Assembly (NCBI GenBank): GCA_036781645.1 | Contig: DAIQAO010000005.1 | Span: 1 to 63,845 of the forward strand | Direction: 5' to 3' | From: Dissulfurispiraceae bacterium | Lineage (GTDB): Bacteria > Nitrospirota > Thermodesulfovibrionia > Thermodesulfovibrionales > Dissulfurispiraceae | Length of the DNA: 63,845 nt | Part shown: one piece after another, positions 19,601 to 22,600 of the stretch | Numbering within the stretch: the first letter of the stretch is position 1 | Layout of the letters: every line of letters starts with the position of its first letter | Program-made: the position numbers

Positions 19601-22600
19601 ATTGCTTTAGTGTCATGATATTTTAATTATTTCAGTCAGAAAACTATCTGATTTTATGGTATATTTTGGCTGATAACGATCTGGGGTTGAATTAAATTTT
19701 TTTTAATGATATAGTTTTATTATGTCTGTGGTGATAGAAAATTTTGATTATCTCTTAAACGAATCTGTCAAAACACACGGGCATCTCTGCCCTGGTCAGG
19801 TTCTTGGGGTGAGGATGTCCCTTTTGGGACTATCTCAAATAGGTATCTTAGAACCCAAAGGCAAAGATAGAAAGTCTTTAATCGTGTTTGTGGAGACAGA
19901 CAGGTGCATGACTGATGCTATTCAATCGGTAACAGGTTGTAGTCTTGGGCACAGAACATTGAAGTTTTTAGATTACGGGAAGGTTGCAGCTACTTTTTTA
20001 AATATTTCTACTAACAAGGCTGTCAGGATAGCTGCGAGAGAGGATGCAAGGGTTAAGGCGAAAGAATACTTCCCTAAAATTGCTGATAAATATGAAGCCC
20101 AGATCGAAGCTTATAAAGTAATGTCGGATGATGAGCTTTTTGATGTTATGAATGTTAGGGTAAACATTAACCCTCAAGACCTGCCTGGCAAACCTTTAAA
20201 CCGTGTAAAGTGCGACTCCTGCGGCGAGTATATTCAAGATTTGAGAGAAATAGTTACTGCTGATGCTATACTCTGCAAGCCTTGCGCAGAAGGGAAATAT
20301 TACATTTTGTTATCTGATAAGGATTTTTTTTCGCCATTCATTATGCAAAATAGTCATAACGAACTTTCTGTGAGGTCAAAGCTATGGTTGGAGTCTGACG
20401 GCGAGCCTATCTTCGGCAGGGGTAGAAAACAACTTCTTAAAGCCATTGATAAATACGGCTCTATCAACCAAGCAGCCAAAGAGATTCAAATTTCATACAA
20501 AAAGGCTTGGAGCTACATTAATGCTATGGAGACAAGGCTTGGCATAAGACTTGTAAAAAGGCATACAGGCGGTAAGGACGGTGGGGGCGCTGTGCTGACA
20601 AAAGAAGCCAAAGAATTTTTGAGCAAGTATGAAAAGCTTGAACAAGGTATCAACGAATTAATAAATAAAAAGTTTAAGGGTATTTTTTATGTGTGAGTGC
20701 TCAGGCGAGGCTGCGCCTAATAATGGCAGGCATAAGATAATACCTGTTTCGCAGGCGGTAGGATGCGTCCTTGCTCATGATATAACAGAAATAAGAAAGG
20801 GGGAGTTTAAAGGTGCTGCCTTTAGAAGAGGTCATATAGTTACTGAAAATGATATACCCCATTTGGAAAAACTTGGCAAGGAACATCTTTATGTCTTAAA
20901 TATTGCCGATGACGAGATGCACGAAGATGAGGCAGCATGGGAAATTGCCCGAATACTTAAAGGTGATGGCGTAGAAGTTCAGGGCGAACCTAAAGAGGGC
21001 AAGATTAATCTAATAGCAACAAGGGATGGATTATTAAAAATCAATACTCATGCCCTTTTTGAGTTTAATATGCATGGTGAACTCATGTGTTCAACCCTTC
21101 ACAACAATACTATGGTTAATAATGGGCAAATTGTTGCTGGGGCAAGAGCTATCCCTCTTGTCATCAAAAAGGCATTGATAGAAAGAGCCTCGGCAGTTAT
21201 CTATTCTTATTCTAATGGCAAAGGCATAATAGAGGTTAAAGAACTAAGAAAATTTCATGCTGGGATCGTTATCACAGGCAATGAGGTCTTCTATGGTAAA
21301 ATTAAAGATACCTTCGCTTCGGTGATTAAAAATAAATTAAAAGCTTTTGGTGGAGAAATAATAAATCTATTTTACGCCCCCGACGATGCAGATTTTATTG
21401 AAAAGAGACTTTTAGAACTAATAGATGCAGGGGCTGAGTTGCTTATAGTCACAGGCGGCATGTCCGTTGACCCTGACGATGTGAGTAGATTTGCTATCGG
21501 CAAAATTGCTCAAGAGGTTACATATGGCTCTGCCGTCCTGCCAGGCGCCATGTTTTTGGTGGCGTATTATCAAAAGACAGGTTTTAGAAAGCAGACATCA
21601 GTTAACAGACTTTTTGATATAGCAAAAGGAAAACCTGATACAGAAAATCTGGACTCAAGCATACCGTCAGTTCATTTGTTGCCAAAGAGTGATAATACAT
21701 CCAATATCCCCATTCTTGGCATACCTGCCTGCGGGATGTATCATAAAACGACCGTTTTCGACCTTGTCCTGCCTCGCATACTTGCTGGAGAGAGCATCGG
21801 CAGAAAGGAGCTTGCGGAATTGGGACATGGTGGTTTATGCCTGAACTGCCGCGAGTGCAGGTATCCCCTTTGCCCATTCGGTAAATAATGAAATATTTTG
21901 CCGTCTCTGCCTATTTTGATAAACCGTTTTATATCATATTTAGCTTGCTCTGTATTTTGATAGTTTTGCCGATTCTTATTTCCTGTTCAGGACATGATAA
22001 AACCACCCCACAAACAACTGATAATAAATCTCAACACCAGCCTCAGCATTTTAACTCTCCCCCTCTCATACTCTCTATTCTTCCAGTTGAAAGCCCGGGA
22101 GCAATGTATGAGAGATTTGTGCCCTTAAAGTATTACCTTGAAGGTGTCCTTAAAAGGCAGGTTATTATTAAAGTTGCCAAAGATTATGAGACCGCTATCA
22201 AAGAGATAGGAGAAGGGCATTCCCATCTCGCATTTCTTGACCCTGCTGCGTATTGCGAGGCACGGGCTAAGTATAAAAATAAGGTCATCCCTCTCGTAAG
22301 TCCTATCGGCAAGGATGGCGCAACATCCAGAAGCGTTATTGTTGTAAAGGCTAACAGCGGCATCGAGAGAATAATAGACCTTAAAGGTAAAAGGCTCGCC
22401 TTGGGCAACAAACAATCTTCATTCAGCTATCTCATACCACTTGCTATGCTCAATGAGGTGCGTCTCGGCACAGGGGATTTTGCAGGTATGGATTTTCTTC
22501 AGCAGGAAGACAGGGTCGCCCTTTCAGTGCTTATCGGCTATCATGACGTTGGGGCTATTAGCGAATCCGTTGCAAAAAAATACACCAATGATGGCTTGAA

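What a model noticed while it worked through the whole genome (the two positions that open the first line are those of the whole stretch)
19722..21888. FmdE-ModE fusion: FmdE as partner of a sensor-less ModE in a molybdenum-cofactor operon
g00342 fuses an FmdE metal-binding domain with its treble-clef zinc finger to a ModE-type winged helix that lacks the molybdate-binding TOBE domains, and is followed by a MogA/MoeA-like gene. Boldest reading: FmdE, a family of unknown function, is the metal or Moco sensor that replaces TOBE, making a new Mo/W-responsive transcription regulator; split and fused forms give a Rosetta-stone link. This would give a first function for PF02663.
Evidence so far: pfam FmdE 19-140, zf-dskA_traR 164-194, HTH_1 237-296; res 235-308 48.6% identical to ModE; TIGR00637 E 1e-25. 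23 of 31 order genomes have the FmdE gene; in 13 relative loci it is fused to the ModE HTH in 3, adjacent to a separate short ModE gene in 6, and next to the MoCF_biosynth gene in 10; several loci also hold molybdoenzymes. FmdE near MoCF_biosynth in 910 genomes, 69 in the order. The FmdE structure paper gives no tested function (PMC2954224, passages, call 56).
(Added by a program. Inside this text positions count along the whole contig: contig position 1 is position 1 of the stretch shown here. "Call 12" and the like, gene names such as g00115 and contig names such as C1 are that model's own, and its searches are not shown. The text may have been shortened before it was handed on; [...] marks where a part breaks off. 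The agent that wrote the report below was given it as the finding of a first reader that could run no searches.)

Follow-up and report, generated by a model that had tools for sequence, protein, structure and literature searches.

The report
Molybdenum repressor fused to FmdE neighbour
This real gene joins FmdE, a metal-binding protein of unknown function, to a sensor-less ModE-type DNA-binding domain across a conserved DNA palindrome that is likely the repressor's own binding site; comparison across genomes suggests FmdE mainly helps mature the molybdenum cofactor together with the next gene, and its proposed role as the repressor's sensor remains untested.

Summary
The fusion is real. Window 19722-20696 encodes FmdE with an intact H-x-H-x-C/C metal site, a Cys4 zinc finger and a TOBE-less ModE wHTH. 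At least 120 protein clusters share this layout, and a second strain keeps the frame. The sensor reading is only partly supported. FmdE's constant partner is the downstream MoeA-like gene: 77 of 77 FmdE-bearing genomes in an order sample have it, while 15 of the 77 have no ModE match. In a second phylum 16 of 28 FmdE loci abut the MoeA-like gene and none abuts modE. FmdE also fuses to MobB. The linker is a former gene junction carrying a 23-bp ModE-type palindrome (20339-20361) conserved at DNA level. Fused forms are polyphyletic, and 13 of 33 adjacent split loci are one base from fusion. Best reading: a late Moco-maturation pair with an autoregulatory short ModE inserted between its genes and repeatedly fused to FmdE. 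FmdE may still signal to ModE (about 30%): this ModE clade occurs only with FmdE plus the MoeA-like gene and fuses mostly to FmdE. No binding was tested. The scan noted the operator, an FmdE-MoeA-like fusion and Mop-less ModEs before on other genomes.

The parts
19687..19715 (+). sigma-70-like promoter candidate of the fused gene (TTGAAT-17-TATAGT, TG before the -10), ending 6 nt before the ATG; weak
   Evidence: 9 of 12 matches; 4 sites found against 5.1 expected in shuffles, so not above chance
19722..20696 (+). fused gene FmdE + Cys4 zinc finger + ModE-type wHTH, 324 aa
19776..20141 (+). FmdE domain (res 19-140) with H19, H21, C23 and C62, matching the metal ligands of solved FmdE proteins
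   Evidence: invariant in 40 of 40 fused homologues; ligands from PMC2954224
20211..20303 (+). treble-clef zinc finger (C164, C167, C185, C188)
20324..20336 (+). run of 8 T followed by TCGCCA (TYG at -8 from the palindrome; possible -35 element), read as Phe-Phe-Ser-Pro in the fusion
   Evidence: T at 85-100% of most positions -15..-8 and TYG in 16 of 20 fused loci; role inferred
20339..20361 (+). 23-bp ModE-type palindrome CATTATGC-N8-CATAACG (consensus CGTTATGC-N8-CATAACG) inside the coding linker; contains the ATG (M208) that opens the separate modE frame in many split loci
   Evidence: best site of the genome (23.3 bits; next 18.4; shuffle maxima 11.7-20.8); the related strain has the perfect CG at 20340
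20376..20687 (+). ModE-type winged helix plus dimerisation helix, no TOBE/Mop domain
20689..21888 (+). MoeA-like protein, 399 aa, MoCF_biosynth domain (res 192-287) and four invariant C-terminal cysteines (C384, C387, C390, C395); FmdE's constant genomic partner

Best explanation
The gene joins an FmdE protein, which likely works with the downstream MoeA-like protein in late molybdenum/tungsten-cofactor maturation, to a short ModE-type repressor that likely binds a palindrome in the linker of its own gene and would thereby limit expression of the MoeA-like gene. Shown: domains, metal ligands, DNA-level conservation of the palindrome, its co-occurrence with this ModE clade, FmdE's co-occurrence with the MoeA-like gene, and repeated fusion. 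Inferred: fmdE-moeA-like is the older pair; in this order an operator-modE cassette sits between the two genes; the fusion arises by small changes at a tight gene junction; ModE represses by covering an internal promoter or by blocking read-through. The signal ModE reads is likely cofactor status relayed by the FmdE/MoeA-like module, not molybdate bound by FmdE. That last step is the weakest.
For: Order sample of 121 genomes: FmdE and MoeA-like gene together 77, FmdE only 0, MoeA-like only 4, neither 40; FmdE with ModE 62, FmdE without any ModE match 15, including single-contig genomes G006 and G016. Second phylum sample (151 genomes): 16 of 28 FmdE loci directly abut the MoeA-like gene, 0 of 28 have a ModE within 1.5 kb; 44 of 62 ModE-bearing genomes there lack this FmdE type at E 1e-35. 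Among the 120 listed longer relatives, 103 are MobB fusions in both orders (41 and 62), 4 MoeA-like fusions, 6 triple fusions, 2 HIT fusions and 5 FmdE-ModE. Neighbours are Mo-bisPGD enzymes, TorD/FdhE chaperones, MoaA, MOT1 and ModA. Palindrome with at most 2 mismatches in 20 of 20 fused and 44 of 45 split loci, also when non-coding. In fused genes third-position C 20 of 20 over 12 codons, third-position T 20 of 20, first-position G 20 of 20, against 47% majority at 19 four-fold sites of the HTH. Pattern in 53 of 121 genomes (control 1), 52 of them with ModE; 53 of 56 sites lie at fmdE/modE. Fused forms need 10 changes on the tree, at least 3 forced by strong branches; one clade rejected, p-AU 1e-108. 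13 of 33 adjacent split loci are one base from fusion. AF2 pTM 0.54, residues 199-229 under pLDDT 50. A paralogous short ModE clade stands before tup/mod genes with its own 24-bp box and no adjacent FmdE.
Against: FmdE-ModE fusion is far commoner than ModE-MoeA-like fusion (14 of 55 adjacent pairs against one triple in the order sample; 34 of 37 longer HTH relatives carry PF02663), which may reflect selection for tethering. Every ModE of this clade has FmdE in its genome. The clade consensus has no cysteine or other obvious ligand site, so it probably needs a partner. Ten of the 15 ModE-less genomes belong to one family, so they are few independent losses. The internal promoter is weak: the -10-like CATAAC lacks the final T, and TTGA in some split loci is simply the fmdE stop. 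Other FmdE subfamilies, including two paralogues in this genome, sit by TonB/ABC transporters, so the cofactor role holds for this subfamily only.
Confidence: 0.55

Rival explanations
1. One reading: FmdE, alone or in complex with the MoeA-like protein, is the sensor that switches the TOBE-less ModE on or off, and the fusion tethers sensor and DNA-binding domain.
For: All 60 matches of this ModE clade co-occur with FmdE; FmdE is its dominant and repeatedly gained fusion partner; metal ligands invariant. FmdE dimers have a cleft large enough for a big ligand, and the authors suggested a sensing role (PMC2954224). M. acetivorans ModE represses in response to Mo without binding it (PMC12327845). 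PadR-HTH-FmdE fusions exist in archaea (PMC11237513).
Against: FmdE persists without ModE (15 of 77). Linker letters are explained by the DNA motif and the linker length varies from 52 to 73 nt. Only a few FmdE positions differ between ModE-bearing and ModE-less members of the order, and phylogeny confounds them. Paralogous short ModEs lie without adjacent FmdE, some in genomes lacking this FmdE type.
Confidence: 0.3
2. The fusion is neutral read-through: ModE is a constitutive autorepressor that sets a fixed level of the MoeA-like gene and senses nothing.
For: One site per genome in nearly all cases; no site at the genome's MOT1 molybdate transporter; easy mutational route.
Against: MOT1, modABC or moaA often follow the operator in relatives, as expected for Mo-responsive control; one extra site precedes modA. 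A short ModE is reported to track Moco status (Hoffmann 2016: title seen, content recalled).
Confidence: 0.12
3. The T-run plus palindrome is a recoding signal (ribosomal frameshift or polymerase slippage) that makes both free FmdE and the fusion from one gene.
For: In-frame T_TTT_TTN in 16 of 20 fused loci, 8 nt before the palindrome; the -1 frame stops within 9 codons in 20 of 20.
Against: The RNA hairpin is weak (-5.2 kcal/mol, z +0.99). The T-run is kept at the same place in non-coding contexts. The -1 stop is largely forced by the operator's own TAA.
Confidence: 0.05

Closest known systems
E. coli ModE (PDB 1b9m, 1o7l)
   Same: Winged-helix DNA-binding domain and dimerisation helix; palindrome of the CGTTAT...ATAACG type; molybdenum-gene context.
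   Different: No C-terminal TOBE/Mop domains; extra domain is N-terminal; box is 23 bp against the 24-bp core of the consensus in PMC545781; regulon appears limited to its own operon.
Short ModE proteins (A. tumefaciens, PDB 2ijl; HTH-only ModE of Desulfovibrio in PMC545781)
   Same: DNA-binding domain only; sensing route unknown or indirect.
   Different: Here tied to an fmdE/moeA-like pair and often fused to FmdE, with the operator inside the coding linker.
FmdE family PF02663 (PDB 2gvi, 3d00, 2glz)
   Same: Core domain, H-x-H-x-C + C metal ligands, treble-clef finger; fusion to PF00994 already listed in PMC2954224.
   Different: Fusion to ModE or MobB was not seen in the parts of that paper read; no formylmethanofuran dehydrogenase genes at this locus.
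M. acetivorans ModE (PMC12327845)
   Same: Very similar box (RTTATGT-N8-RCATAAY, shown by EMSA); Mo-dependent repression without detectable Mo binding; predicted boxes before an fmd operon.
   Different: Has one Mop subdomain, a large regulon, and a box one base longer.
MoeA / gephyrin E / Cnx1E
   Same: Downstream gene's best sequence and fold matches.
   Different: Only the central domain aligns (TM 0.22-0.31 overall); Cys4 C-terminal tail; the genome has two other MoeA-type genes and a MogA-type gene.

Membership tests
FmdE (PF02663) | Pfam match above cut-off | tested here: met
   118.7 bits against 22.9
FmdE (PF02663) | H-x-H-x-C motif plus distal Cys, and C-terminal treble-clef finger | tested here: met
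   H19, H21, C23, C62 and four finger cysteines invariant in 40 of 40; Foldseek 2gvi, 3d00, 2glz
FmdE (PF02663) | metal binding and dimer formation | not testable with these tools
full-length ModE (PRK10676) | N-terminal wHTH | tested here: met
   TIGR00637 89.6 bits, slightly under its 98.5 cut-off
full-length ModE (PRK10676) | C-terminal TOBE/Mop molybdate-binding domains | tested here: not met
   no TOBE hit; 65 bits against cut-off 369
short (TOBE-less) ModE repressors | wHTH without a sensor domain of ModE type | tested here: met
short (TOBE-less) ModE repressors | cognate ModE-type palindrome that tracks the gene | tested here: met
short (TOBE-less) ModE repressors | DNA binding and Mo/Moco-dependent repression | not testable with these tools
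   needs EMSA and reporter tests
short (TOBE-less) ModE repressors | control of modABC-type uptake genes | tested here: inconclusive
   no modA found in this genome and no site at MOT1; MOT1 or modABC follow the operator in some relatives
MoeA molybdotransferase (downstream gene) | full-length MoeA match above cut-off | tested here: not met
   NCBIfam MoeA models about 19 bits against cut-offs 440-560; PDB matches cover only res 177-292

The most novel reading that the evidence does not exclude
FmdE, alone or bound to the MoeA-like protein, is a moonlighting cofactor sensor: when loaded with Mo/W-pterin it switches a TOBE-less ModE onto an operator embedded in its own coding sequence. This would name the missing partner of sensor-less ModE repressors and give PF02663 its first function.
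Probability: 0.3. Interest if true: 0.75.

Novelty: new variant of a known kind. Interest (0 to 1): 0.5.

Why it matters
How ModE proteins without a molybdate-binding domain sense molybdenum is stated as open in print (PMC545781, PMC12327845), and FmdE has no tested function (PMC2954224, PMC13355700). This locus offers a compact three-component test set: a repressor, a precise candidate operator and two candidate partners, in fused and split natural versions. Apart from the sensor question, the co-occurrence with a MoeA-like protein and the fusions to MobB place one FmdE subfamily in late molybdenum/tungsten cofactor maturation in anaerobic bacteria.

Tried and rejected
Complex prediction (FmdE with ModE dimer and MoeA-like protein) was not available, so no physical contact was modelled. 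No RNA holder listed, so start sites and slippage could not be examined. A genome-wide scan found no regulon beyond the junction site. A half-site ATAACG at 19673-19678 has no matching left half and changes in the related strain: rejected as an operator. No Rfam match, no Moco riboswitch in the window. Frameshift hairpin weak. No MobB or ModA match in this genome (completeness 99.98%, 154 contigs). The search for FmdE residues specific to ModE-bearing lineages was inconclusive. The FmdE-only tree was poorly resolved; the three-protein tree used 55 of 81 loci, those with all three domains. A plasmid search with a ModA added nothing. Hoffmann 2016 and Studholme & Pau 2003 were not held. Literature searches that found no description of an FmdE-ModE fusion; subscription papers and bioRxiv supplements are outside this library.

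Full report
Observation. The window holds one 324-aa ORF at 19722-20696 that overlaps a 399-aa ORF at 20689-21888. Pfam places FmdE at 19-140, a zinc finger at 164-194 and an HTH at 237-296. The HTH matches TIGR00637 at E 1e-25, slightly under the cut-off, and matches E. coli ModE and the short A. tumefaciens ModE 2ijl by sequence and fold. There is no TOBE domain. The ligands of the solved FmdE metal site (PMC2954224; abstract, introduction, results 3.2-3.7 and conclusions read) correspond to H19, H21, C23 and C62, invariant in 40 aligned fused homologues chosen from the 120 listed. All 120 listed homologues have both domains; named ones are mostly Nitrospirota. A 97%-identical strain from another study keeps the frame.

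Which gene does FmdE follow? I searched 121 genomes of the order for the FmdE part, the MoeA-like protein and the ModE HTH and tabulated the matches, counting as this FmdE type those over 180 bits. FmdE occurs in 77 genomes and all 77 have the MoeA-like gene; 4 have the MoeA-like gene only and 40 neither. Only 62 of the 77 have any ModE match. The 15 without include two single-contig genomes (G006, G016), though 10 belong to one family. In G006 the order is molybdoenzyme operon, fmdE, a small gene, moeA-like, with modE and the palindrome both missing. In 151 genomes of a second phylum (centred on the genome of L068, record title Syntrophales), 16 of 28 FmdE loci abut the MoeA-like gene and none has a ModE within 1.5 kb; 44 of 62 ModE-bearing genomes there lack this FmdE type at the threshold used. 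Longer relatives of the FmdE part are mostly MobB fusions (103 of 120 listed, both domain orders), plus MoeA-like, triple and HIT fusions; that search excluded lengths under 348 aa, so it does not rank MobB against ModE fusions. MobB partners MoeA in late cofactor assembly (PMC13197769, passages). In the 80 best genome loci plus the window, neighbours are Mo-bisPGD enzymes, TorD and FdhE chaperones upstream, and MoaA, MOT1 or ModA downstream. This FmdE subfamily therefore looks like a late cofactor-maturation factor (inference). Two other FmdE paralogues of this genome sit by TonB/ABC transporters, so the family is mixed.

What the linker is. A palindrome CGTTATGC-N8-CATAACG lies at the fmdE/modE junction in 20 of 20 fused and 44 of 45 split loci, and in 4 of 16 loci without nearby modE. 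In many split loci it is non-coding; in others its ATG opens the modE frame. In the window it is at 20339-20361 and is the genome's best site under a matrix trained on split loci only (23.3 bits; next 18.4; shuffle maxima 11.7-20.8). In fused genes silent positions are fixed: third-position C in 20 of 20 across 12 codons, third-position T in 20 of 20, first-position G in 20 of 20, against 47% at four-fold sites of the HTH. The exact pattern occurs in 53 of 121 genomes (reversed control 1); 52 of these have ModE; none of the 12 genomes of the ModE-less family has it; 53 of 56 distinct sites lie at fmdE or modE. It resembles the EMSA-proven M. acetivorans box RTTATGT-N8-RCATAAY (PMC12327845, passages and first part of the discussion) and the E. 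coli consensus (PMC545781, passages), one base shorter. A paralogous short-ModE clade (one clade, support 99) has a 24-bp box between a TTG-type -35 at -8 and a TATATT -10, before tup/mod genes and without adjacent FmdE. The present clade shows TYG at the same -8 position in 16 of 20 fused loci and CATAAC at +16, so an internal promoter is plausible but weak; a roadblock is the alternative.

How the fusion arose. On a tree of 55 loci with all three domains (643 columns), the fused state needs 10 changes, at least 3 forced by strong branches, and monophyly is rejected (quick tree, direction of change not established). Other joins exist: ModE-MoeA-like (L051), FmdE-MoeA-like (L081), triple (L029, L037). 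Of 33 directly adjacent split loci, 13 are one base from an in-frame fusion at the T-run. AF2 gives pTM 0.54 with residues 199-229 under pLDDT 50, as expected for loosely joined domains, though a monomer model of two dimeric domains says little about contacts.

This ModE clade is never seen without FmdE and the MoeA-like gene (60 of 60 matches) and shows no ligand site of its own. FmdE is its main fusion partner (34 of 37 longer relatives carry PF02663; one MoeA-like and one NTP-transferase fusion). The need for an outside sensor is recognised in print (PMC545781; PMC12327845). A short ModE tracking Moco status was reported for A. tumefaciens (title seen, content recalled). PadR-HTH-FmdE fusions in three Methanosaeta assemblies were read as a hint of a regulatory role (PMC11237513, passage and supplement rows). 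Co-occurrence cannot separate FmdE from the MoeA-like protein as the partner. No complex could be modelled.

Verdict. Most likely (0.55) an FmdE/MoeA-like cofactor-maturation pair with an autoregulatory short ModE and its operator placed between the genes and repeatedly fused to FmdE. FmdE as true sensor 0.30; signal-free autorepression 0.12; recoding 0.05. It works like a short ModE repressor; it is not a full-length ModE, and the downstream gene is not a canonical MoeA. No paper describing the FmdE-ModE fusion turned up. New variant of a known kind; interest 0.5.

Noticed in passing
P0134-P0236: FmdE of this subfamily is fused to MobB in both orders in many anaerobes (names include Chloroflexi, Verrucomicrobiae, Binatia); no paper found linking the two.
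   Followed up: partly
window 20689-21888: The MoeA-like protein ends in an invariant CxxCxxCx4C-x-FGK tail, a possible Fe-S or Zn site absent from canonical MoeA.
   Followed up: partly
window 21888-35903: Tandem periplasmic-binding-domain protein, histidine kinase, sigma-54 regulator, two TauE-type genes, a PhsA-like molybdoenzyme without signal peptide and NuoEFG-like genes follow on the same strand: a possible cytoplasmic thiosulfate/sulfur redox module.
   Followed up: no
L100:637(-), L101:5136, L103:4875, L104:4711, L106:4966, L107:4707(-): A second short-ModE clade has a 24-bp box CGTTATTCC...TATATTACG between -35 and -10 elements, with the start codon 2-4 nt after the box (likely leaderless), before tupABC/modABC.
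   Followed up: partly
L061:1235-1603, L114:6595-6909, L150:4730-5062: A small unannotated gene (about 105-120 aa, no Pfam match) lies between fmdE and modE or the MoeA-like gene in 8 of 81 loci.
   Followed up: no
G000:C3:7629-8618 and G000:C2:75622-75831: No ModA was found in the genome; it has a MOT1-family molybdate transporter and a stand-alone 69-aa TOBE (molbindin-like) gene, neither with the palindrome.
   Followed up: partly
G000:C16:30733-32004: Molybdopterin oxidoreductase match with one in-frame TGA, probably a selenocysteine formate dehydrogenase.
   Followed up: no
G000:C51:2572 and 3273: Two neighbouring 191-aa pilin-like genes start with identical sequence (duplicated segment).
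   Followed up: no
L043:10614-10977: modE is broken into two frames in this relative.
   Followed up: no
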